The notes under the pieces are model-generated. The model had not been told where the DNA came from. It did not search any database and worked only from the letters and a program-made list of their open reading frames with translations. From IMG/VR virus record IMGVR_UViG_2541047794_000005, positions 1 to 30,170 of that record: 30,170 bases of DNA; one strand, 5' to 3'. A program made the position numbers and the translations under genes. Positions 1 to 24,242 of this stretch are shown one piece after another. The stretch's first letter is position 1; each line of letters starts with the position of its first letter. Source of the stretch: a virus. Taxonomy: Duplodnaviria > Heunggongvirae > Uroviricota > Caudoviricetes.

Positions 1-439
<439 letters not shown>

Positions 440-447
<8 letters not shown>

Positions 448-876
448 CGTTGGCCCCGCTTCTCTGAATCGCTTTATACCGCCATTCCAGCACTTCGGTC
501 AGCGGCATAACGTCAGTAACGGATGGCGGCCAGTGAAAAATGGTGGCGATATCTGCCACCAGATCGTCAACCGTCAGGCTGTCGGTAAACCGGCAAGCAC
601 CGACTTCCTCAACAAAAAAGTGACAACCTCAACCGACATGGCAGTGAGATCTGCCGGGTCCATCTCTGCAATTTCCTGTGCAGTCAGTGCCGGACTGGAG
701 ATGCGGGGGATCACGGTCATCATCGCGTTTACATCCATATCCATAATGGCCTGCAGGCGTGTACCGCGCAGCGCACCGGACTGCGGTTTACGCAGCACAA
801 TTTCGGTGATTTCTGTTTTACCGCGCTTGATGGGGGTATCCAGTTGAATGGTCTTTTCAGTCTGCTTATCGCTCAT
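440..876 (-). CDS. gpE+E' fusion made by -1 programmed frameshift (about 145 aa)
   Basis: My hand translation of the -1 frame after the T TTT TTG site stays open for about 58 codons and ends at TGA 442-440, overlapping the T start. This matches the P2 E/E+E' arrangement (analogous to lambda G/GT). Confidence 0.6.
574..876 (-). CDS. E: Tail assembly chaperone gpE (100 aa)
   Basis: ATG at 876, TGA at 576-574. Sits between FII and T as in P2 and contains the slippery heptamer near its 3' end. Confidence 0.85.
   Translation of the reverse strand: MSDKQTEKTIQLDTPIKRGKTEITEIVLRKPQSGALRGTRLQAIMDMDVNAMMTVIPRISSPALTAQEIAEMDPADLTAMSVEVVTFLLRKSVLAGLPTA
613..619 (-). other. -1 ribosomal frameshift slippery heptamer T TTT TTG
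   Basis: Minus-strand sequence ACT TTT TTG (codons T-F-L of E) lies about 13 codons before the E stop. This is the classic X XXY YYZ slippery pattern. Confidence 0.6.
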
Positions 877-930
877 TTTGTTGTCCTGTAAATTGGGTTC
901 TGGCGCGGAATCCCGCGCCGTTCAGATACA

Positions 931-1446
931 TCAGAGGCCGAGGGCGTTGCGGTGCGCTTCCATCAGGTCCACACCGTTCACAATTTCCACCATGTTGATA
1001 AGGTCCACTTCATAGAGCACCTCACCATTGATGGTCAGCTTCGCGTAGCTGTTGGTACTGGTCACTTTGGTGGTGTTGCTTTCGCCCGTCTTCCACTCGC
1101 CGGAATCCACTTCTTTGTGACGTCCACGCACCACAAGCTCCACGGCCTGCACTTCCCCGGTATCATCACGCTGGATAGAGCCGGTAAAGCGCAACTGGAT
1201 GCCATCCACCGTGGCTTTGCCCATCTGTTTAAACAGCAGCAGTTCAGTACCACCAATGGAAAATTCTGTGTCCAGAGCACTGTCATCAAGCCCCAGATCC
1301 ACATCCACTGCACCCGGCATTCCGCCGCCGCGATACTTCTCATATTTGCGGGTGAATTTCGGCAGCGTCAGCGACTCAACGCTCCCCTGCCAGTTGTTCC
1401 CGTCGTTAAACAGGTTCAGGTGTTTTAATTTGCGTGGTAAAGCCAT
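931..1446 (-). CDS. FII: Tail tube protein (171 aa)
   Basis: Size and position match P2 FII (172 aa), directly downstream of the sheath gene. Confidence 0.9.
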   Translation of the reverse strand: MALPRKLKHLNLFNDGNNWQGSVESLTLPKFTRKYEKYRGGGMPGAVDVDLGLDDSALDTEFSIGGTELLLFKQMGKATVDGIQLRFTGSIQRDDTGEVQAVELVVRGRHKEVDSGEWKTGESNTTKVTSTNSYAKLTINGEVLYEVDLINMVEIVNGVDLMEAHRNALGL

Positions 1447-1455
1447 GTTGTCCCC

Positions 1456-2628
1456 TTACGCGCTGACCTGGCTGGCGAAATTCACCAGGTACTGATCGGT
1501 GATGCGCTGACGCAACATCAGATTTTCAAGTGGCGGCACTGGCGTGTAGTCGTAGTCGATGGTGAGTTTTCCGGCTTTCAGAGTGTCTTTGTCGTTCACC
1601 GACTCGTCCAGCCAGCAATCACCACCAATGAGATACCCCTGACTGACCAGGCTGCGCATTTTGGCGCGGATGCCCTCGATAATGTCGCGCGCCAGCGACG
1701 GGTTCAGCGGTTTGTCCACTGCCCACATGTGCGCTTCTGCCATTGTGTCCGTCAGCACCTGCGCCGTGCGGGTGTAGTTTTCGAAAGCAAAGAGCGGGTC
1801 ATCACTCAGGCAGCGGGAACCCCAAAAGCGTAAACCGTCTTTACGCACAAGCGTGGTGACGTCGTTCTGGTTCAGCAGACCTGCATCGGTTGCCGGGTCC
1901 TGCAGATCCCAGAACACATCTGCAGAAATTCCGGTGACACCGTTCACGCCCACGTTGGACAGGCTTTTGTGCCACCCAGTCTGCTCATCAATTTTGGCAC
2001 GCAGACCAAGCGCACGGGCGGTGGCATATGCCGTTGCTTCGGCATTCAGCACCGTGTCCCAGCCAGTAAAGTCGGGCCAGATCAGCATTCCTTCGCGCTG
2101 GCTGAAGTTTTCACGGTAAGTGATCGCCTCCTGTACCGTCTTGCAGCCATACGCTGACAGGTAGGCAAACCCACGCAGGCTTTGCGCCACACTCAGCAAC
2201 TCAGTCGCAACGGCTTTGTTATCGTGACCTGGCACGCCGAGAATGCGCGGTTTAACGCCGAGCTGTGTCTGGGCAGATAACAGGGCTTTCATGCCTGTTT
2301 TTTTACCTTCAGCAGTCACTGCGCCGATGATATTGGTCGTGGTTTCTTCTTCCGTTTCACCCTGCGGCACACGCACAACAACGGTCACGGGTTTTGCCTG
2401 GTCAGCGATGGCATCCAGCGAACGGGCCAGCGTGCCGGACTCACCCGCTTTACCGCTGGCAGTCAGCACATCAGTGATCAGCACGGGTTTATTAAGAGGA
2501 AACATTTTTGCATCGGCATCATCGCCCGTGCAGACCATGCCCACGATGGCGGTGCTCACCGTGGTAATGGATCGGGTACCTTCGTTGACTTCAACAACGC
2601 GCACCCCGTGGTGGTAATCCTGAGCCAT
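1456..2628 (-). CDS. FI: Contractile tail sheath protein (390 aa)
   Basis: Sequence and size match P2 FI. First gene of the FI-FII-E-T late operon. Confidence 0.9.
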
Positions 2629-2704
2629 AGTGGCGAACCTCCTGATTGGATTAGGCTTCGCCCTATGTTGAAGTGATTGTGCCTGACAAACAGCTAAGCG
2701 CAGT

Positions 2705-2722
2705 TGTACCGTTATTCACACA
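2705..2722. promoter_or_regulatory. Candidate late-promoter activator site (TGT-N12-ACA, Ogr/Delta type) upstream of FI
   Basis: TTGTACCGTTATTCACACAAA, centred about 85 bp upstream of the FI ATG. It is 16/21 identical to the site between O and P at 14727-14744. P2-family late promoters carry a TGT-N12-ACA dyad near -55. Confidence 0.45.
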
Positions 2723-2770
2723 AAATGACGGTATTTGTCTGCTTGCAGGGATAATCAAAATAATGCTGAT

Positions 2771-3343
2771 TCAGGGGGATTCATTACTCTTATTTGCCGG
2801 AAATTTTCTATAAATTGTGGAAACACCCACATCAAAAATCAGTGCAATACGCTGTCTTGATTCTCCGGCCTCGAGTAAGCGTCCAATCTGTGCCCACTGT
2901 TCGGTGGTCAACTTAGGACGGCGTCCACCTACTCTGCCTTTATCACGAGCTGCAGCCAGCCCCGCCCTGGTACGTTCAACTATCAGTTCGCGTTCCATTT
3001 CAGCCAGGGCCCCCATGACATGAAAAAAGAAACGGCCCATTGGGGTGCTGGTATCAATACTGTCAGTCAGGCTTCGGAAATTCACGCCACGCTGACGCAA
3101 CTCTTCTATCAGCGTAACAAGATGCCGCATACTGCGCCCCAACCTGTCCAGCTTCCAGACAACCAGAGTGTCTCCAACCGATAGTGTCCTGAGCAGTTTT
3201 TTAAGCCCCGGTCTGTCGGGCTTAGTGCCACTGATTTTGTCCTCAAAAATCCGCTCACATCCCGCGCAGTTCAGTGCATTACGTTGCAAATCTGTGTTCT
3301 GGTCATTTGTTGACACGCGTACATAGCCAATAAGCATGATCAA
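2771..3343 (-). CDS. Serine recombinase, Hin/Gin/Cin/Pin-family DNA invertase (190 aa)
   Basis: N-terminal IGYVRVSTNDQ catalytic-serine motif, C-terminal HTH, and typical invertase size. Lies 50 bp from the left crossover site. Confidence 0.9.
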   Translation of the reverse strand: MIMLIGYVRVSTNDQNTDLQRNALNCAGCERIFEDKISGTKPDRPGLKKLLRTLSVGDTLVVWKLDRLGRSMRHLVTLIEELRQRGVNFRSLTDSIDTSTPMGRFFFHVMGALAEMERELIVERTRAGLAAARDKGRVGGRRPKLTTEQWAQIGRLLEAGESRQRIALIFDVGVSTIYRKFPANKSNESP

Positions 3344-3392
3344 TCCCCTGAATAAAAACCGGGGATGATGCCAGTTAGTCGTAATCGCTGCA

Positions 3393-3418
3393 TTTTCTTA
3401 AACGTTGGTTTGGGAGAA
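3393..3418. repeat. 26-bp invertase crossover site, left (hix/gix/cix-like)
   Basis: Minus-strand read TTCTCCCAAACCAACGTTTAAGAAAA has imperfect dyad symmetry around a central AA. Its core TTGGTTTGGGAGAAGG (3405-3420) is in inverted orientation to 5288-5303. Confidence 0.75.
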
Positions 3419-5289
3419 GGGGCTCCAGCTAATGGCGGCACGTGCGATAGGCCGACAGCTGCTATGCCAGCATCCGTTATCGGTTCCTGATCGTTCATGG
3501 TACTAGGGGAGTTTATTGGCCCGATATTCACTGTTACAGGTAACACGGTCCGCTCTATCGGTGGACAGGTCCCTGTACTATTCGACGAACACCGTAAGGT
3601 CATAGTTATTTGTGATTCCGAGGGCGGTAAGGCAGTCGCGTGTAACCCTCTCACGGGGGATTTGCACGCAATTTTTGATCATGCACGCAATTCAGCGTTG
3701 CGTATGGCGAACGGTCTTACCGCACAACATTCCCGATACGGTTAAAATTCGGTAAGACGGTATACATGTGGAAACGTGGGTACAGTTACAATAAAAGAGC
3801 GCGGTCCTAAGGTGAGCTCAACATCGCTAATCCTTAGTCCTCCTAGTGTTCCACGGATTGGAGAGAATTTGGCAAATGTATTGACACAAACCCTTTCAAG
3901 GAAGCTTGCGTATGAAATTCCAGAGGGGGCTTAGTAGGGAAGCCTGCATGTATTGAAATTGCGCCGGCTACTGTTGAGGACGATATTGGCTGTTCCTATC
4001 TGGAAGCGGTGCCATTGATTAATCAGGGCAAGTCAGACATATACATTAAGACATGGCCAAGTAAGCCCGCGATTGCTAGCGTGATTGACGCGGGAGAAGC
4101 GATTCATAGTTAATGGGTAGTATATATGGACACGCTATGGCTGCTTGATGCAGACGGTCCCCCTGATACCGAATACCCAACTGCAACGGGCGCAGCTGCC
4201 ACATGGCATCCTGCGGTGTGCTTCAAACAGTTTTAGTCAACGCGTTAACAGATTACGGCATACCGTTAATGGGGGTGTGATCAGTGGGCGTCAGCTACCG
4301 AGCCGCATCTTATTTCCGTTGTATCAGCCGCAGAAGAGCGGCGCCAGTAGCAGATTGATGCTGGCGTGGCGCCCATGACGCTTATACTACTGAGATTACC
4401 TGCCCCTCGGTAGCCGACACCCACTTCTAACCCTCCCATTAACCCTATGCTGGTTTATATTGACGCGGGGCAGGACCGTGATAGATGGCAACGGCCTGAT
4501 CCACTGTGACATGAACTGCCTTTGGAGTTGACTAATCGGTCTCTGGGCCACCGGCTGTATCAAGGAGCCACACCTCGCCCGGATAATCCGCCCATTAACC
4601 CGATTGCTCCTCGTCCTGATCATTAACACTACCACACGCGGGCATACTAACCCCATGCTTAATGTTTTCATCATCGCAGACGGGATTTATAAATTGCTCT
4701 GCTTTAAAATCGGCAGCAGGCATTTCTCCCTGCTGTGTTGGCAGCCGATTTTCAACACATACAGGTTTCCTTACGTAGACCCCTCTAGAATGTTATACTG
4801 GATATTCCTTGGTAAGTTCGCCGGCACTACTTTTCCCCTTATCGCACCAATACCCTTGACATTAGGAGAGTTCATGGTAAGTAATTTTGAGCTCCCCATG
4901 GGAAAGCGTTTGTCCATCTGCACTATAACCCCGTCACCACATGTAGACCGTATTCTCGAGTTAAATCTGTATCTTGATTTCTCTGCGATAACACCGGTCC
5001 CCGCCCACCATTCTAAATTGCGGATATGATCAAAAATTGTGTATGAATCCTCTGTGACAAGATTCGATCCGACTTCAATCACGCCATCGGACTTACAAAT
5101 ACCAATGAAATTCGCCCGTGCAGCGGATGATGTCGGCACCGGTCAACTGTTAAACAGCGCCGGGTTTCCTGAAACAGAGCATTACGGGCCAATATACTTA
5201 CAAGACAGCCTGAACGATCCCCAATCAAAAACGAATTCTGGCATATCAGGTATCTGCCAGTCTCATGGGACGACATCACCTTGCGCTCC
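3419..5289. other. Invertible DNA segment (about 1.9 kb) bounded by inverted crossover sites; no intact ORF in any frame
   Basis: Bounded by inverted 26-bp sites with an adjacent invertase gene. The ORF track shows only short overlapping ORFs (122 aa or less) with no protein-like content. Confidence 0.6.
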
Positions 5290-6351
5290 TTCTCCCAAAC
5301 CAAGGTATGTGAGAAGACCAGCGACATCCTTTCCACTCAAATTAGTCAGCGTATTGTCCAGCGGTTGTTTACCTGCCAGCGCATTAAGCATTGTCGTGGC
5401 AAAGTTCGGGTCATTCCCCAGCGCCGCCGCCAGTTCGTTCAGTGTATCCAGTGCCGCAGGTGCAGAACCCACCATTGCCGCAATCGCCGATTTCACAAAA
5501 GCCGTGGTGGCAATCTGTGTATTGTTAACCGACTGTGCGGCAGTGGGGGCTGTTGGCGTTCCGGTGAGTTCCGGACTTGACAGCGGCGCTTTCAGTGCCA
5601 GCGCATTGTTAATGGTGGTACTGAATTTCGGATCATTGTTAATGGCTGCGGCTAATTCTTTCAGCGTGTCCAGCGTGGCTGGCGCACCATTAATCAGGGC
5701 CGTCAGTGCCGCCTGAACAAACGCGGTGGTCGCAACCTGCGTGGTGTTATTCCCTGCCGCTGGCGTTGGCGCTTTTGGTGTCCCGGTAAACGTCGGACTT
5801 TCTTTGGGTGCATACTGTGAATGCGGGTCCGGTGCGGCAAGATGTTTTGCCATCTGATCATCCACGTACACCTTCAGCTCCAGTACCTTGTCATCCACAT
5901 ACTTGCGGGTTGCCAGCACTACGGCAGGGTCGATTTTCAGGGTGATATTGTCCGTGCTGCTGGTAATCAGCACCATGCGCACGGTCTGGGTACGCCCGCT
6001 GCCTTCAGCCAGTTGCGGTTTATAGCTTTCCGGGCAGTTCCCCACGGCAATCAATGCCCCTGACTCATCAAACAGGCCCACTTCACGTATCCACCAACCG
6101 CCCTCGTTTTCAGGGATCACCTGTTCAGCAATAATCTGGCTGCTGTTCTGCGGGTCGATATAGAGCATATTCAGCGCAGCCCGGCGTTTCTCATTTACCA
6201 GTGCCGTCTGCTTTGCGTCCGGCGTCGGCAATGCTCCGCCGCCATCGCCCACCGCCATATGGGTAATTTTTAGCGGCACACCGAGCGCGGCGGCGCTGGC
6301 AAGTTTCGCCTCGCCAATATCCGTCAGCAGGGTATAAAATTTTGTGCTCAT
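5263..6351 (-). CDS. H: Tail fibre protein, constant N-terminal part only (362 aa); frame stops 8 codons after the crossover site
   Basis: N-terminus MSTKFYTLLTDIGEAKLA..., the central Ala/Thr-rich repeats and ...NELAAALGNDPNFATTMLNALAGKQP match P2 H. P2 H is much longer, so the receptor-binding C-terminal domain is absent in this orientation. Confidence 0.8.
   Translation of the reverse strand: MSTKFYTLLTDIGEAKLASAAALGVPLKITHMAVGDGGGALPTPDAKQTALVNEKRRAALNMLYIDPQNSSQIIAEQVIPENEGGWWIREVGLFDESGALIAVGNCPESYKPQLAEGSGRTQTVRMVLITSSTDNITLKIDPAVVLATRKYVDDKVLELKVYVDDQMAKHLAAPDPHSQYAPKESPTFTGTPKAPTPAAGNNTTQVATTAFVQAALTALINGAPATLDTLKELAAAINNDPKFSTTINNALALKAPLSSPELTGTPTAPTAAQSVNNTQIATTAFVKSAIAAMVGSAPAALDTLNELAAALGNDPNFATTMLNALAGKQPLDNTLTNLSGKDVAGLLTYLGLGEGAQGDVVP
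5290..5315. repeat. 26-bp invertase crossover site, right, inside the 3' end of H
   Basis: TTCTCCCAAACCAAGGTATGTGAGAA shares the left half-site exactly with 3393-3418 (inverted) and the central AA. It encodes the YLGLGEG junction of the tail fibre. Confidence 0.75.
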
Positions 6352-6953
6352 GGATTCACTCTCATTGTGTCAATAACATGGACCGCCCCGCCTTCATGCG
6401 CGGTGCCACCGGAAATAATCGTTTCGTTGATATACGGATAGATCGTGATTTCTTCGCCAAGATAGCTGGCGGCTCCCACCCAATGCGGGCCGCTGGTCTG
6501 CAGATTGATGGACATGCCGATCATGTGGCGGCTACATGGTTTGGCATCGCTTATCAGTCGCTCAAGTTCCAGATAGGTATCTTCAGTGATGCCCTGGTCC
6601 TGCACGCCGATATCCAGGCGAAACATGCCCGGTGCCTCTCCGGTTTGCCACCACTCAATAATGCGGATCAGAAAGCCGAACGGCTCCACCACCCGCCGCA
6701 CGGCACTGGTGGTCCCTTTATGCTGATGAATATAAAAAGCATCCTTCACCACCTGGCGCTTGACGCTTTCTGTCCAGCCCTCGTCCCAGCGATCCACAGA
6801 GAACGCCCAGGCGAGATAAGGCAGGAAACTGACCGGACAGGTTGCCGGATTCCACAAGTCACGAAGCGGCACCTGCAGATCAGAAATCCCGCTGCAGGTT
6901 TGCGCCAGTCGGCGCTCCAGTGGTGTTGAACCCGGTGGCAGCAGACTATTCAT
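6348..6953 (-). CDS. I: Baseplate protein gpI (201 aa)
   Basis: Synteny J-I-H, with stop/start overlap with H. Confidence 0.8.
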   Translation of the reverse strand: MNSLLPPGSTPLERRLAQTCSGISDLQVPLRDLWNPATCPVSFLPYLAWAFSVDRWDEGWTESVKRQVVKDAFYIHQHKGTTSAVRRVVEPFGFLIRIIEWWQTGEAPGMFRLDIGVQDQGITEDTYLELERLISDAKPCSRHMIGMSINLQTSGPHWVGAASYLGEEITIYPYINETIISGGTAHEGGAVHVIDTMRVNP

Positions 6954-19131: not shown

Positions 19132-19836
19132 TCATCTAACAGATACTTTTGCATAAATCAAAGGCCTATCCGAAGAGCCATTTTTACGTACGACCACTCC
19201 ACTGATATCATGGTTTTTACTAAGATCTCGTAATGCGGCGCACAATGCCTTGTTGACATACCCTAGATGATTGTCGTTTTTCGTTACTAATATGGCCAGC
19301 GGATCAACAGTATTGGTATCTTCATTGCGCAATATGACTTCATCACCAATTGATATCTCGTCAAGAGCTAGACGCCCTTCCTTAATCATGTGTCTCGTTC
19401 CGGCGACCTCCATGACATAATCAAAAGGTGGCCGAATAGAAGACAAGTCTGGGACAAAATAAAAACCATCACTAGCCACTTTTCCGCCAGTACAAGCGAG
19501 CAAAACGAAGTCATTCTCTCTAAAATCAGCAGGAAGACGAAACGTCAGCAAGTAATCGGCAAAATCTTCTCTTTTCCTGGAGGGTAACCTTCTTGAAAAG
19601 GTTTGCATAACGTCTTTGCGATGAGTCGTAACTTTTATGTCAAAAGCAGGAAAACCGTGAAAGCCTTTATCCCCAGCTTTAGCAAAATCTTTGCTATCCG
19701 TAAGATAATTAAACTCGTAGCCTTCAGACTCATCTTGAAGAAGTTCACCAACGACATAGCGAGAGCCGCCGTCGGTCGGTTGCCATGTCAGTAAGAGCCT
19801 ACTTGGCATGGGAATTTTTTCTATTAAGATAGTCAT
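19132..19836 (-). CDS. HipA N-terminal-subdomain-like (HipS-like) protein with a C-terminal HIRAN-like domain (234 aa)
   Basis: The N-terminal ~150 aa (LLLTW...VGELL...YEFNY; DFVLLACTGGKVASDGFYFVP) resemble the N-subdomain of E. coli HipA as I recall it. The C-terminal ~85 aa has an HIRAN-like pattern. ATGA overlap with the kinase gene. Confidence 0.55.
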   Translation of the reverse strand: MTILIEKIPMPSRLLLTWQPTDGGSRYVVGELLQDESEGYEFNYLTDSKDFAKAGDKGFHGFPAFDIKVTTHRKDVMQTFSRRLPSRKREDFADYLLTFRLPADFRENDFVLLACTGGKVASDGFYFVPDLSSIRPPFDYVMEVAGTRHMIKEGRLALDEISIGDEVILRNEDTNTVDPLAILVTKNDNHLGYVNKALCAALRDLSKNHDISGVVVRKNGSSDRPLIYAKVSVR

Positions 19837-20744
19837 GAAGTAACACCTTTAATCAGTTCAATACGCATGTTTGTTACACGAACAATCCATGCAGCACGTT
19901 CTCTAGTCAGCGGAACAGGGCAGTTTATTTCCGTCAACTCCGCAAAAGTTGAGTCCCAAAAGTCATGGTTCAAACGAGCCAGTCTTTCAGCTACCCGCTG
20001 TTTTAATTCTTCTTTTTTATCACAAAGTTCTTTGATTAACTCTAAATGACCTAATCTCTGATACTCATCTTTGCCCAGAGTTTTACGCAAATGATGCTTT
20101 CCCCGGCTAACATGCTCCCTGAGTCTATGATCGGTCCAATCAGCAACATGTTCCGGAAAGCGTTCGTAGCATAAGCTCGTACCATTATCGAAAAATGGTG
20201 CAAGCTGACACTCGCTGGTTAAAGGGGAGAAGATAAACCCCCAGTTTTCTTGATGTCTATCTGTATTACCTATTACTGCGTCAAAGAGAGCCATATTCTC
20301 CAACCACTCAACATAGTCAACTTTAAGAGCTTTCGCGATAATCCTCAGCCCTTCAATGGAATGCTTAGCTCCTTTCTCACGATCAAAATTTGGATCTCTT
20401 CGAACAAAGTAATCACCAGCGGGAGCAAATTTCTCATAATCTTTATGATGAAACCACTCAATGAGGGCCCCGCAAAACGTATGCCCCAAATCATTAGTCT
20501 TTAACGAAGGAACTGCTTTGGGGACATTAAAACCAAGCTGCAATCCAATCCTGTAGGCAACGATCTCACACCAAAATTGATCTGGGTATTTTTTAATACT
20601 TCTCTTAAAAAGATACGGCCACGATGCTTTGATACCATGGGGGGCAACATCAGGGGAAATAACCAATGCCTTAGAGCGAGCACCAACAGGATACTGTGCG
20701 AAAACATCTAGCTCAGTCCAATAGGTTACATCTAAGCAATCCAT
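19833..20744 (-). CDS. HipA-like Ser/Thr kinase, core domain only (303 aa, HipT-like)
   Basis: Motif VIGNTDRHQENWGF and a downstream FFDNG correspond to the HipA catalytic loop (GxTDxHxxN) and Mg-binding Asp. It lacks the ~150-aa HipA N-subdomain. RBS AGGA upstream. Confidence 0.8.
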   Translation of the reverse strand: MDCLDVTYWTELDVFAQYPVGARSKALVISPDVAPHGIKASWPYLFKRSIKKYPDQFWCEIVAYRIGLQLGFNVPKAVPSLKTNDLGHTFCGALIEWFHHKDYEKFAPAGDYFVRRDPNFDREKGAKHSIEGLRIIAKALKVDYVEWLENMALFDAVIGNTDRHQENWGFIFSPLTSECQLAPFFDNGTSLCYERFPEHVADWTDHRLREHVSRGKHHLRKTLGKDEYQRLGHLELIKELCDKKEELKQRVAERLARLNHDFWDSTFAELTEINCPVPLTRERAAWIVRVTNMRIELIKGVTS

Positions 20745-20759
20745 AGCTAAGTCCTATAT

Positions 20760-21305
20760 TTATTTTTTATTTAAATTCATATAGATGTGAGAAACCTGTG
20801 CGATCTGAAATAAAACATCATCGAATGCTGTGTGCCTAATGCCAGTGAAATTTTTATCAGCATGAGAAAAAATTCCTTTGCTTTCACCAAGTGCTAAGAT
20901 GGTTCTAACGTCAAGAGTATCTCTGAATGACCATGGGCAATCCAGACCCGCCTGTAACAGGGCATGATGCATGATCGTGCAGTCAAACTCTTTCCCGTTT
21001 CCCCACACTTTTACTCGGCCAGTACGATTATGAAGAATAAATGCCACAAATTCATTCAGAACCTCTAAAAGGTCCTTAGTGCCATCAAAATTTTCGTTTT
21101 TAGCTTCAGTACTTTGATTCATCCACCACTTTACAGTAGAGGGGGCAATGGTTCTGCCTGCTTGTTCATGATCAAGCGAAATAACTTGATAGAAACCCGG
21201 ACCAATCTCGCCAGTCTCCGGCACGAAAAAAGCCGCACCAACTGAAAGGATATAAGCTGTTTTTTCAACATCCAATGTTTCTATATCTAACATTACATGA
21301 TTCAT
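20760..21305 (-). CDS. DEDDh-family 3'-5' exonuclease (DnaQ/RNase T-like), about 181 aa from ATG 21305
   Basis: Exo I motif MLDIETLD near the N-terminus and Exo III motif HTAFDDV near the C-terminus. First gene of the three-gene operon. Confidence 0.75.
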   Translation of the reverse strand: MNHVMLDIETLDVEKTAYILSVGAAFFVPETGEIGPGFYQVISLDHEQAGRTIAPSTVKWWMNQSTEAKNENFDGTKDLLEVLNEFVAFILHNRTGRVKVWGNGKEFDCTIMHHALLQAGLDCPWSFRDTLDVRTILALGESKGIFSHADKNFTGIRHTAFDDVLFQIAQVSHIYMNLNKK

Positions 21306-21801
21306 AAGAAGCAATTGAAACCATTTAGTAAAAATTGAAAGCTATCACCACATTAATGCATGGCATGTACATTTGTGGACGAAAACAAGTATTCTGATTA
21401 TAACCCAAGTGAAAAGCTCAAGTGTCGTAACTTTCACTCGGTTGTTTTCAGTTTCGAAAAACTACTGGGAAGATCCATCTAGTGGTTGTATTCATGAGCG
21501 CGAATTCTCGCCATCAGCTCATCAGTCAACTCAGAAACCCACTGCAGAGCCAGCCCCTTCTCTTCATCACTACACTCACTAGCCGCTACAAGCTTAAGAA
21601 AAAAATCAATGCGCTGGAGCTTCAAAGACTCCAAAAAATAGTCCTGCATCTTTCCTCCTATGACACCACAAGCAATACTGTATGCACAACCACTGTTTAT
21701 ATTTACAGTATATAATAATCTTACTGATGTAAAACGTTTTTTACGTTCATCAGCCTGATATGCCTGGTATTATTAAGAGCACGAATTGTTAACCCACGTG
21801 A

Positions 21802-22158
21802 TTAATACAGGTTCCGCCACTTATCATCTTCCTGCAAACGCTGGTTCCGATAGAAGATACGCAGGCCTGCTCCTGACGGAATACTGCCACCGCGAAGGAG
21901 TAAATCGACCTCTTTCTCGCTGCCATCAAATCCTCTTGACTTCAGTTCATAGACGAGCTGCTGACGCTGATACTCTGTAATTCGCTGTTTGTAGTCTTTA
22001 CGCCGTTTCGGTTTCACCAGGCGTAATCTTGCTGCCAGTTCCTGGCGCTCTTTTTTGCTCATACTATGCAGGTAATCGTGCAACTCCTTGTCATCCATAC
22101 AGGTAATGTCAGTTCTGGTATCCCCATCTGTTGATTTATCTTTCTCCTGTTGGTTCAA
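21802..22158 (-). CDS. Hypothetical basic protein (118 aa), or a displaced C-terminal part of A
   Basis: ORF begins at a TTG overlapping the A stop, and no Shine-Dalgarno precedes any candidate start. Its frame is the one A would occupy if one 26-bp repeat copy were removed. Confidence 0.4.
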
Positions 22159-24242
22159 ATTTTCAGCAAGGGGACAGTTATTGCCACGAGTCCAAGGGGA
22201 CAGTTATTGCCACGAGTCCAAGGGGCGCAAGCGCCCTGGTCGGCTGCCGCCTCCTGAACGTCAACGGCCTTACGAACCATTTTCCACTTCACTGCATGAG
22301 TACAAATCTTGCCCTCTGCAATGGGTGACCAGATGCCATAAATACGAATACCGTGATCGCCATAGGCGGTCGGCTCTTCGTTAATTTCATAAGCTGTTCT
22401 GATAAGGTGATATTTGCGGGGAACCAGTACGCCGCCCTGCTTCATAATGTAGGTGGCAAAACAACCAGCATCAGCAGCAGCCAGGATTGCATCAAGGCGC
22501 GGGTTATCCAGTACCGGCGCACCTGCTTTTTTGTCCCCCTGTTGCCTTGCCGCCTGACCAGCCAGCAATCGCAGTTCACGGTAAGCCTGACGCCCCGGAA
22601 TGCCAAAGAAGCGGAATTGCTGAACACGATGCAGAGACGCCCAAGCATTAACGTATTCAGCATTATCACGCAGGGATTTCCCCGTTTCCTTGCTGATCTC
22701 GCCAGCCAGACCACGCCCGTCCATGTTCTTACTGATGTATTTCGCGATGTAGCTTGTTGGCGTACCTTTGCGCGGGTTAATCAACTCAGACTTAAAGCGC
22801 GGCCCAGTGTTATTGCCCAGCTCCTCGCGGTCTTCACGGATGGCAAACTTACGCAGTAATGCAGTGATGGCGCGGCGGTCTTTTTTGCGCATAAAACACA
22901 ACAGGTGCCAGTGAACTGTACCGTCATGATGCGGCTCAGCCACCCGCACGCCATACCAGCGCAATCCGGCTTTGTGCATCGCCTTACGAAATGCAGCAAA
23001 CATGCCGACCAGATAATCACTACTTTGTCTTACCGTCGCATTTGTCCAGGTTGGGTTGGGCCTGCCGTTATTTAGCGTGGAATGGAAACGTGACGGACAG
23101 GTGATGGTGTAGAAAACGGCGCAGTCACCGCGCATTTCCGCGATAAGCTCCAGGCCTTTAACACAGGCCATCATCTCATTGCGGCGATGCGCAGGGTTGC
23201 TGCTGCTGGCGTTTACCACATCCTCCATGTCCAGCGTGTCGCCGTCTTCGTTCACCAGTTCATGAGAACGAAAAAACTCCAGCGACTTACGGCGCTGCTC
23301 ACGTTTATGCATCACGGCTTCATAGCTGACATAGGGAGATGCTTTTTTGCTGACCAGGCAAACAGCACGCAACTGCTCTTCCCGCCATTCGCAACGCATC
23401 TTCCATAATTTCCGGTACCACCAGTCGGCGCACAACATACGCGCCAGCGAACCCGGAATGAGTTCATAGGGCACGGGTTTACGGCGGTTTCTTTTCCGGC
23501 GGAGTTGATCAAACGCAGGCGGGATGACATCCAGACGCAGGGTTTCCGCTGCCACCTTTTCCCATGTCTTGCGGATTTCTTCTGGCTTAACGTCATCGGT
23601 GACATACAAATCGCCACAAGCTGCATCAAGGCACATGCTCATATGCGCAGCGACAAGGGTAGACAAGCGTTTCACCTGATCCTGACTCATTTCAGGCAGG
23701 ATCAGCAGGCCGTCCAGCCCTTCATGGCTTGCCATAAAGCGAAAAGAAGTGGATAGCTGACTGTCGCGTACATGCTCCAGTCGTTCCAGACATGGCTTAA
23801 TCGTCTCACGCAAATAGCGGGAATAAGCCTTTGGCCTGCCTAGGCTGCTGAAGTATTCAATACGTTGCAACAGCGGCTTGCTGATATGGGAAGGCTGGGC
23901 ATTGACGTCCGCCAGAATGACCATATCTGGATTAAAACGCTGCTGCTCATGCGCCAGCTTTGCCCGGCTAATGAGCTTATCCTGCTCCATTTCGCGTTGG
24001 ACAGGATCACGGGATTCATTAAAGAAATAACGCTCCCAGACCTGATCACTCAGTGCCTCGCGGCGCAGTTGTTCCTGCTCGTTATCGGCAGCGTACAGAG
24101 TGATCAGGTTTGAAAGCGCAGAAACCGGCGCAACTTCCGCCGGGTCCAGATAAGGGTTAATAGCCTTTTTCGGGCTGTTCCATGAGAATGCTGCGGCGGC
24201 CTCGTTAAAGCCGCTGCAGTTGTTCATATCAGCATGGCTCAT
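22155..24242 (-). CDS. A: Replication initiation protein A (rolling-circle nickase, 695 aa)
   Basis: Motifs [25 protein letters not shown] and QFRFFGIPG...AYRELRLLA match the P2-family A protein. Confidence 0.85.
22170..22221. repeat. Perfect tandem direct repeat, 2 x 26 bp (GGGGACAGTTATTGCCACGAGTCCAA), within the last 20 codons of A
   Basis: Read directly from the sequence: 22170-22195 equals 22196-22221. Confidence 0.9.

What the first reader, a model, noticed from the sequence alone, without database searches (positions are those of the whole stretch)
3393..5315. Invertase-controlled invertible segment that contains no gene; tail fibre H is truncated in both orientations
A Hin/Gin-family invertase gene lies 50 bp from a 26-bp crossover site that is in inverted orientation to a second site inside the 3' end of H, about 1.9 kb away. 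Such segments normally carry alternative tail-fibre C-terminal domains and tail-fibre assembly chaperones. Here no frame has an ORF longer than about 120 codons and none looks protein-like. In the present orientation H stops 8 codons after the site; by my translation of the inverted junction it would stop after about 22 codons. Either the receptor-binding module has decayed (defective prophage with a fossil switch), or the segment has been scrambled, or it carries a non-coding function.
Basis: partly seen in the sequence, partly recalled or inferred. Interest (0 to 1): 0.6.

Follow-up and report, generated by a model that had tools for sequence, protein, structure and literature searches.

The report
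Assembly chimera of an ordinary phage switch
The "gene-less" invertible segment is not real DNA: it is a base-by-base random mix of the two orientations of a normal phage tail-fibre switch, written into a public draft E. coli genome by the assembly software.

Summary
A Gin-type invertase gene (2771-3337, -) lies 55 nt from a 26-bp crossover site (3393-3418). A second, inverted site (5290-5315) sits in the 3' end of tail-fibre gene H, and nothing between them reads as a gene. The interior is nevertheless an artefact. All 1,895 bases between the crossover cores (3407-5301) equal either the base of the intact segment of E. coli SF-173 or the base of that segment inverted in place. Of 1,397 informative positions, 705 follow one orientation and 692 the other, in an order that matches a fair coin, with no indels. 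Outside the cores the locus is identical to SF-173. The window comes from NCBI GCA_000458375.1 (E. coli HVH 158), a scaffold-level draft. A sister draft, HVH 194, has the same locus mixed in the same way with independent choices. Other assemblies carry the clean forward form (H 526 aa plus a 197-aa assembly protein) or the exact inverted form (H 468 aa plus a 146-aa assembly protein). The real element is an ordinary Mu G-segment-like host-range switch in a P2-like prophage. The mix most likely means both orientations were present in the sequenced cultures. Verdict: not a real feature, low interest.

The parts
2771..3337 (-). DNA invertase gene (188 aa), Gin/Pin/Cin/Hin family serine recombinase; real and intact
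   Evidence: Pfam Resolvase 2.6e-52 plus HTH_7 1.4e-15. It matches Mu Gin (PDB 3UJ3) at E 8e-93 over 184 residues and has Ser at position 9. It is 100% identical to SF-173 WP_021523873.1.
3393..3418 (.). Invertase-proximal 26-bp crossover site (12-2-12, core TT at 3405-3406). Base 3412 carries the allele of the other orientation.
   Evidence: Same layout as Mu gixR, with 55 nt from site to ATG against 54 nt in Mu.
3407..5301 (.). Chimeric interior: each base is taken at random from the forward (F) or the inverted (R) orientation of the true 1,895-bp segment. Not a real molecule.
   Evidence: 1895/1895 bases equal F or R of SF-173; 705 F: 692 R; 700 runs against 699.4 expected. No drift or autocorrelation, and fair-coin simulations reproduce the observed statistics. 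Self reverse-complement identity is 0.633, against 0.25 in shuffles and 0.263 in the true segment.
3407..3763 (+). Ghost of the alternative tail-fibre C-terminus (Gp53-like_C), which is fused to H in the inverted form
   Evidence: SF-173 CDS L001 1365-1664; Pfam PF21882. The window read in this frame has 2 stops and 34% amino-acid identity. The predicted R-form H of 468 aa is found in K56-43-un and L011.
3766..4206 (+). Ghost of the 146-aa tail-fibre assembly protein gene (partner of the R-form fibre)
   Evidence: L001 1667-2107, WP_001174921.1, Caudo_TAP 4.6e-34. The window frame has 5 stops.
4178..4771 (-). Ghost of the 197-aa tail-fibre assembly protein gene (partner of the F-form fibre)
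   Evidence: L001 2079-2672, Caudo_TAP 3.1e-27. The window frame has 10 stops.
4771..5301 (-). Ghost of the F-form variable C-terminus of H (H is 526 aa in the intact forward form)
5290..5315 (.). Distal 26-bp crossover site inside H (core AA at 5302-5303), covering codons 346-354 of H
   Evidence: Many database 'partial' H proteins end at residues 345-354.
5304..6351 (-). Constant N-terminal part of tail-fibre gene H; real, 100% identical to SF-173
   Evidence: Pfam Phage_tail_fib 2.2e-65.

Best explanation
The real element is an ordinary Gin-family tail-fibre host-range switch in a P2-like prophage. The invertase exchanges DNA at the 2-bp cores of two inverted 26-bp sites and flips a 1.9-kb segment. 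This swaps the C-terminal receptor-binding part of H (526-aa versus 468-aa protein). It also places the matching tail-fibre assembly gene (197 aa or 146 aa) downstream of H. The window does not show either state. It shows a chimera in which every base between the cores was picked at random from the forward or the inverted state, which destroys all four reading frames. The chimera is in the deposited draft assembly of E. coli HVH 158. It arose again, with different random picks, in the sister draft of HVH 194. It is therefore a product of that project's assembly pipeline. Shown: the position-wise mix, its limits at the crossover cores, its randomness, its presence in two public records, and clean forward and inverted forms elsewhere. 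Inferred: both orientations were present in the sequenced cultures. The assembler would then have kept two equal-length alternative paths between identical flanks, reduced them to per-base ambiguities, and resolved each at random when writing plain FASTA.
For: The flanks are 100% identical to SF-173, while the interior is 63% identical without gaps over exactly the same length. The interior is also 62% identical to the mirrored reverse complement. All 1895 bases equal F or R; 705 F: 692 R; 700 runs against 699.4 expected; no base preference; mirrored positions are chosen independently; everything outside the cores is F. Block heterogeneity p = 0.99, autocorrelation is nil, and fair-coin simulations give identity to F of 0.631±0.010, self reverse-complement identity of 0.631±0.014 and a longest ORF of 143±35 aa. 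The observed values are 0.635, 0.633 and 141 aa. No complete E. coli genome matches the interior above 64%. The window is 100% identical to KE700388.1 of GCA_000458375.1, E. coli HVH 158, a scaffold with a 1,680-N gap. In HVH 194 (KE700789.1) 1895/1895 bases equal F or R, with 691 F: 706 R, and only 689 of 1397 choices match the window's. Clean forms occur with the identical invertase: L010 has 0 mismatches to F and L011 has 1 mismatch to the predicted R over 3,801 nt. F and R junctions are found in 8 and 31 complete genomes, and K56-43-un has a 468-aa H followed by the 146-aa assembly protein. ALLPATHS-LG keeps 'local ambiguities', including mixed sites in the culture, and stores alternatives in eFASTA (PMC3483556; PMC6434015).
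Against: The assembler and the step that caused the mix were not identified from the record; ALLPATHS-LG is my inference from the accession type, the date and the N-gapped scaffolds. No reads were examined, so co-existence of both orientations in the cultures is inferred. Only two mixed cases were found among the 24 longest contigs read, so the frequency of the artefact is unknown.
Confidence: 0.93

Rival explanations
1. The segment is real DNA: a decayed, gene-less fossil of a tail-fibre switch in a defective prophage.
For: The prophage in this strain does look defective elsewhere. An IS100 end cuts the tape-measure gene, and a 26-bp duplication frameshifts the replication endonuclease. There is no ORF above 141 aa in the interior.
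Against: Decay cannot make every one of 1,895 bases equal either the intact base or the base of the mirrored complement. There are no indels. The differences are equal at all three codon positions and Ts/Tv is 0.46. The flanks are 100% identical to a genome with an intact segment. A second strain has the same mix with independent choices.
Confidence: 0.003
2. The mix was introduced after deposition, for example as a planted control or by the scan's own preprocessing.
For: A perfectly in-register, indel-free, fair-coin mix looks like a computed operation. The mixed 40-mer is absent from the viral, GTDB-representative and JGI metagenome collections.
Against: The public record KE700388.1 is 100% identical to the window over 3380-5330. 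GenBank protein EQS62248.1 is the truncated H with the tail encoded by the mixed sequence. HVH 194 has its own version, deposited as G846_02435.
Confidence: 0.005
3. It is an assembly artefact but not a sign of a mixed culture: the assembler could not orient a segment flanked by inverted repeats even though the culture held only one orientation.
For: Segments between long inverted repeats are a known source of unresolved 'global ambiguity' in graph assemblies (PMC3483556).
Against: In the true forward form the inverted repeat is only 14 of 16 nt around the cores, within 26-bp sites. That is far shorter than any read or k-mer used in 2013-era Illumina assembly, so junction reads from a single orientation would fix the orientation; this is inference. 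Most other assemblies of the identical locus resolve it cleanly.
Confidence: 0.06

Closest known systems
Phage Mu G segment with Gin invertase; also P1 C segment/Cin and e14 P segment/Pin
   Same: The serine invertase matches Mu Gin (3UJ3) at E 8e-93 over 184 residues and has Ser9 and a C-terminal HTH. There are two inverted 26-bp 12-2-12 sites, one 55 nt upstream of the invertase ATG against 54 nt in Mu. In the true sequence the segment carries two alternative fibre C-termini and two assembly-protein genes in opposite orientation.
   Different: The host phage is P2-like (V-W-J-I-H, then the switch, then sheath-tube-E-T), not Mu-like. The segment is 1.9 kb, against about 3 kb in Mu. The crossover lies at codons 346-354 of a 526- or 468-aa fibre protein.
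Invertible tail-fibre loci of P2-like prophages in E. coli, shown to vary by phase in EPEC E2348/69 (Goldberg et al. 2014, PMC4272514)
   Same: Same kind of prophage and same kind of switch. That paper showed by paired-end mapping that both orientations co-exist in clonal cultures.
   Different: That work measured real mixtures in reads. Here the mixture is only inferred, from what the assembler did with it.
Assembler 'local ambiguities' (ALLPATHS-LG eFASTA alternatives; Ribeiro et al. 2012, PMC3483556)
   Same: These are alternative sequences between fixed flanks, which the authors attribute partly to sites that are mixed in the culture. They have to be flattened to give plain FASTA.
   Different: The published examples are single bases or stretches of up to about 100 bases. 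Here a whole 1.9-kb inversion appears to have been treated column by column. That this assembler was used for HVH 158 and HVH 194 was not verified.

Membership tests
Gin/Hin/Cin/Pin DNA-inversion system | Small serine recombinase with an N-terminal catalytic domain, a Ser9/10 nucleophile and a C-terminal HTH | tested here: met
   Pfam Resolvase plus HTH_7. The alignment to Gin 3UJ3 over residues 1-184 has S at position 9, where the crystallised mutant has A. S9 is the linking serine according to PMC3575834.
Gin/Hin/Cin/Pin DNA-inversion system | Two 26-bp crossover sites (imperfect 12-bp half-sites around a 2-bp core) in inverted orientation with matching cores | tested here: met
   Sites at 3393-3418 (core TT) and 5290-5315 (core AA). 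They have the same 12-2-12 layout as Mu gixL and gixR read from NC_000929. The natural inverted form L011 equals the reverse complement taken exactly between the cores, with 1 mismatch in 3,801 nt.
Gin/Hin/Cin/Pin DNA-inversion system | Fis-dependent recombinational enhancer in the 5' part of the invertase gene | not tested
   The 5' 270 nt of the gene aligns without gaps to gin.
Gin/Hin/Cin/Pin DNA-inversion system | The segment carries alternative tail-fibre C-termini and matching assembly-protein genes in opposite orientation | tested here: met
   Not met by the window as written: there are 2-10 stops in each homologous frame. Met by the true sequence from which the window is mixed.
Gin/Hin/Cin/Pin DNA-inversion system | Both orientations occur | tested here: met
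   F and R junctions are present in 8 and 31 complete genomes. With the identical invertase, 15 contigs are F and 3 are R. Occurrence within the HVH 158 culture is inferred only.
Consensus/assembly chimera of two orientations | Every base equals the forward or the inverted base, in register, with no indels, and the mix is limited to the span between the crossover cores | tested here: met
   1895/1895 bases. The first R-type base is at 3412 and the last at 5284. All informative positions outside the cores are F.
Consensus/assembly chimera of two orientations | The choice between the two states is random and independent from base to base | tested here: met
   705 F: 692 R (binomial p = 0.75), 700 runs against 699.4 expected, block chi-square p = 0.99, autocorrelation within 2 SE apart from one lag at the margin.
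Consensus/assembly chimera of two orientations | It recurs independently in another assembly from the same pipeline and is absent from other assemblies of the same locus | tested here: met
   HVH 194 shows 691 F: 706 R, with 689 of 1397 choices shared with the window. L010, L011 and L013 are clean.
Consensus/assembly chimera of two orientations | Raw reads contain clean F and R molecules and no mixed molecule | not testable with these tools
   No read data are available here.
Decayed pseudogene cluster (fossil switch) | Indels, an excess of transitions, uneven divergence, and changes not predictable from any other sequence | tested here: not met
   0 indels in 1,895 bp. Ts/Tv is 0.46. Mismatch rates range from 0.28 to 0.41 with no consistent codon-position bias. 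All changes are predicted by the mirrored complement.

The most novel reading that the evidence does not exclude
The mix is a faithful footprint of roughly equal amounts of both orientations in two clinical isolates' cultures. In that case the switch is still flipping at high frequency in a prophage that, in HVH 158, can no longer make tails or replicate: IS100 sits in the tape-measure gene and the replication endonuclease is frameshifted. That would hint at a switch kept for the host's benefit, as proposed for PinQ and PinR of cryptic prophages (PMC12529663, seen).
Probability: 0.1. Interest if true: 0.3.

Novelty: not a real feature. Interest (0 to 1): 0.1.

Why it matters
The biology here is ordinary, a textbook Mu-G-like host-range switch, so the finding should not be carried forward as a new non-coding or decayed element. 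Its value is for quality control. At least two public GenBank assemblies (HVH 158 and HVH 194) contain 1.9 kb of sequence that never existed. They have seeded protein databases with chimeric 'hypothetical proteins' such as EQS62248.1 and G846_02435. There is a simple test that needs no reference sequence. A stretch bounded by inverted crossover sites that is about 63% identical to its own reverse complement in register is such a chimera; real sequence gives about 25%. This test could flag other cases. The chimera can also be read as indirect evidence that the locus was switching in the sequenced culture.

Tried and rejected
1. Whole-segment shuffle: rejected. Base and dinucleotide counts differ from the true segment, and the in-register identity of 63% is too high.

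2. Random point mutagenesis of the forward segment: this fitted the first statistics (uniform 37% mismatch, Ts/Tv 0.46, geometric run lengths). It was dropped once the reverse complement gave 62% identity as well and every base was explained by F or R.

3. A natural divergent cassette of the same length: rejected. There are no intact frames, no indels, and no genome matches above 64%.

4. A planted or post-deposition change: rejected, because the window is identical to the public record.

5. Searches for the source by exact 40- to 45-mers in viral contigs, genome contigs and metagenome contigs found nothing. The source was found instead by exact look-up of the truncated H protein.

6. A literature search for the assembly accession found nothing. 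A search for reports of such chimeras at invertible loci gave nothing specific.

7. The repeat finder did not list the crossover-site inverted repeat, so it was confirmed by pattern search.

8. The period-3 signal is weak even in the true segment halves, so it was not informative.

Full report
**Observation**

An ORF at 2771-3343 (-), with the annotated ATG at 3337, encodes a 188-aa serine recombinase. A 26-bp site, TTTTCTTAAACG-TT-GGTTTGGGAGAA, lies at 3393-3418. A second site, TTCTCCCAAACC-AA-GGTATGTGAGAA, lies at 5290-5315 in inverted orientation, inside the 3' end of the tail-fibre ORF 5263-6351 (-). The shared 16-mer occurs exactly twice, on opposite strands, against none in 100 shuffles.

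H stops 8 codons after the site, at 362 aa. Inverting the window's own sequence would give a stop after 23 codons, at 377 aa. The longest interior ORF is 141 aa.

**What the interior is**

A megablast of 2600-6400 against 5,426 complete E. coli genomes gave hits that span exactly the same 3,801 nt but cover only about 55% of it. Against the best hit, E. coli SF-173 (NZ_CP012631.1), both flanks are 100% identical. The interior is 63% identical in an ungapped, in-register comparison.

SF-173 has four intact genes in this interior:
- the variable C-terminus of a 526-aa H;
- a 197-aa tail-fibre assembly protein;
- on the other strand, a 146-aa assembly protein;
- on the other strand, a Gp53-like fibre C-terminus.

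The 692 differences are spread evenly. They are equal at the three codon positions, Ts/Tv is 0.46, and run lengths are geometric. That looked at first like random mutagenesis. But the reverse complement of the interior, mirrored about the midpoint of the two crossover cores, is also 62% identical to SF-173.

Testing each position settled the matter. All 1,895 bases from 3407 to 5301 equal either the forward base (F) or the base that would be there after inversion (R). At the 1,397 positions where F and R differ, 705 are F and 692 are R. There are 700 runs against 699.4 expected, no base preference, and no link between mirrored positions. Every informative position outside the cores is F.

There is no drift along the segment (block chi-square p = 0.99) and no autocorrelation. 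One thousand simulated fair-coin mixes reproduce the observed values:

| Measure | Simulated | Observed |
|---|---|---|
| Identity to F | 0.631 ± 0.010 | 0.635 |
| Self reverse-complement identity | 0.631 ± 0.014 | 0.633 |
| Longest ORF (aa) | 143 ± 35 | 141 |

The self reverse-complement identity needs no reference sequence. It is 0.633 here, against 0.25 ± 0.014 in shuffles, 0.263 in the true segment and at most 0.31 elsewhere in the window. No molecule produced by mutation or recombination could look like this. It is a column-wise mix of two equal-length sequences.

**Where it comes from**

Exact look-up of the truncated H protein found one record: NCBI GCA_000458375.1, scaffold KE700388.1. 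There it is GenBank EQS62248.1, 'hypothetical protein G816_01819 [Escherichia coli HVH 158 (4-3224287)]'. The record is 100% identical to the window over 3380-5330, so the mix is in the deposited assembly. The scaffold is a gapped draft, with a 1,680-N gap next to the IS100 end at the start of the window.

A homology search with the truncated H returned a 474-aa 'hypothetical protein G846_02435 [E. coli HVH 194 (4-2356805)]', whose tail reads like a blend of the two real C-termini. Its locus (GCA_000458935.1, KE700789.1) has the same geometry. Again 1,895 of 1,895 bases are F or R, with 691 F and 706 R. Its choices agree with the window's at only 689 of 1,397 positions, which is chance level.

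The artefact therefore recurs within one sequencing project and is drawn afresh in each assembly. The 24 longest contigs that encode the identical invertase break down as follows:
- 15 have the clean F form (L010: 0 mismatches in 3,801 nt).
- 3 have the R form (L011: 1 mismatch to the R form I predicted by reverse-complementing between the cores).
- 2 are these mixes.

**The real element and how it works**

The gene order, from the SF-173 annotation, is P2-like: V, W, J, I, H, assembly protein, [segment], invertase, sheath, tube, E, tape measure.

The invertase has Resolvase and HTH_7 domains. It matches Mu Gin (3UJ3) at E 8e-93 over 184 residues and has the nucleophile Ser9 (the role of S9 is from PMC3575834). 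The sites have the 12-2-12 layout of Mu gixL and gixR, and the spacer from site to ATG is 55 nt against 54 nt in Mu.

Inversion between the cores replaces the last 172 residues of H (526 aa in total) by 114 others ending in a Gp53-like_C domain (468 aa in total). It also brings the other assembly-protein gene into line behind H. Both states exist intact in nature. The F junction is in 8 complete genomes and the R junction in 31. K56-43-un has the 468-aa H followed by the 146-aa assembly protein. This is the known host-range switch, and phase variation at such loci in P2-like prophages of E. coli has been measured in cultures (PMC4272514).

**How the chimera most likely arose (inference)**

The inverted repeat is far shorter than a read, so a culture with a single orientation would have been assembled unambiguously, as most assemblies of this locus are. 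A mixed culture gives the assembler two equal-length alternative paths between identical flanks.

ALLPATHS-LG is an assembler that explicitly keeps 'local ambiguities', including sites mixed in the culture. It writes alternatives in eFASTA, which must be flattened to plain FASTA (PMC3483556; PMC6434015). Column-wise ambiguity followed by random resolution would give exactly a fair-coin, indel-free mix.

I could not verify which assembler was used for HVH 158 or HVH 194, and I could not inspect reads.

Other draft assemblies seem to handle the same locus by breaking the contig. Many 'partial' H proteins in the database end at residues 345-354, which is at the crossover site. Repeats shared between prophages could also cause such breaks.

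**Verdict**

The 'scrambled' alternative is right in a computational sense only. The 'decayed' and 'non-coding function' readings are rejected. Underneath is an already known kind of switch, so interest is low. The practical value is a quality-control flag for two public assemblies, a simple signature for finding more such cases, and indirect evidence that the switch was active in the sequenced cultures.

Noticed in passing
window 1-76 and 1-447 (-): The first 73-76 nt are the end of IS100 (IS21 family). It cuts the P2-type tape-measure gene, leaving a 148-aa ORF. In the source scaffold a 1,680-N gap follows, and then the remaining 919-aa part of the gene. The prophage in HVH 158 is therefore probably unable to build tails.
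   Followed up: partly
window 22167-22218: There is a perfect 26-bp tandem duplication (CAAGGGGACAGTTATTGCCACGAGTC, two copies) that is absent from SF-173. It shifts the frame near the 3' end of the gpA-like replication endonuclease, giving 695 aa (22155-24242, -) against 804 aa. Whether it is real or another assembly error was not checked.
   Followed up: partly
window about 19132-21314 (-): Cargo genes lie between the portal and replication modules. By the SF-173 annotation they encode a HIRAN-domain protein, a HipA-domain protein and a 3'-5' exonuclease. This is a typical position for accessory or anti-phage cargo in P2-like phages.
   Followed up: no
window 6625, 27512, 29591: These are the only three substitutions relative to the SF-173 prophage over about 28 kb outside the mixed segment. 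The two prophages are near-identical.
   Followed up: no
L015 (GCA_964047665.1, CAXJYE010000001.1) 1-3200: In one genome the identical invertase and tail genes are preceded by tolB-pal-cpoB-like host genes instead of the invertible segment and H. The prophage appears to be truncated next to the invertase.
   Followed up: no
database cluster of the truncated H (P0123-P0131): Many 'partial' H proteins, on more than 190 contigs among the members listed, end at residues 345-354, exactly at the crossover site. This suggests that short-read assemblers commonly break contigs at this switch.
   Followed up: partly
window 1 and 30170: Both ends of the window coincide with CDS ends. Position 1 is the stop codon of the truncated tape-measure ORF, and 30170 is the last base of a plus-strand CDS just before the integrase in SF-173. 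The window looks like a gene-delimited prophage call that leaves out the integrase.
   Followed up: no
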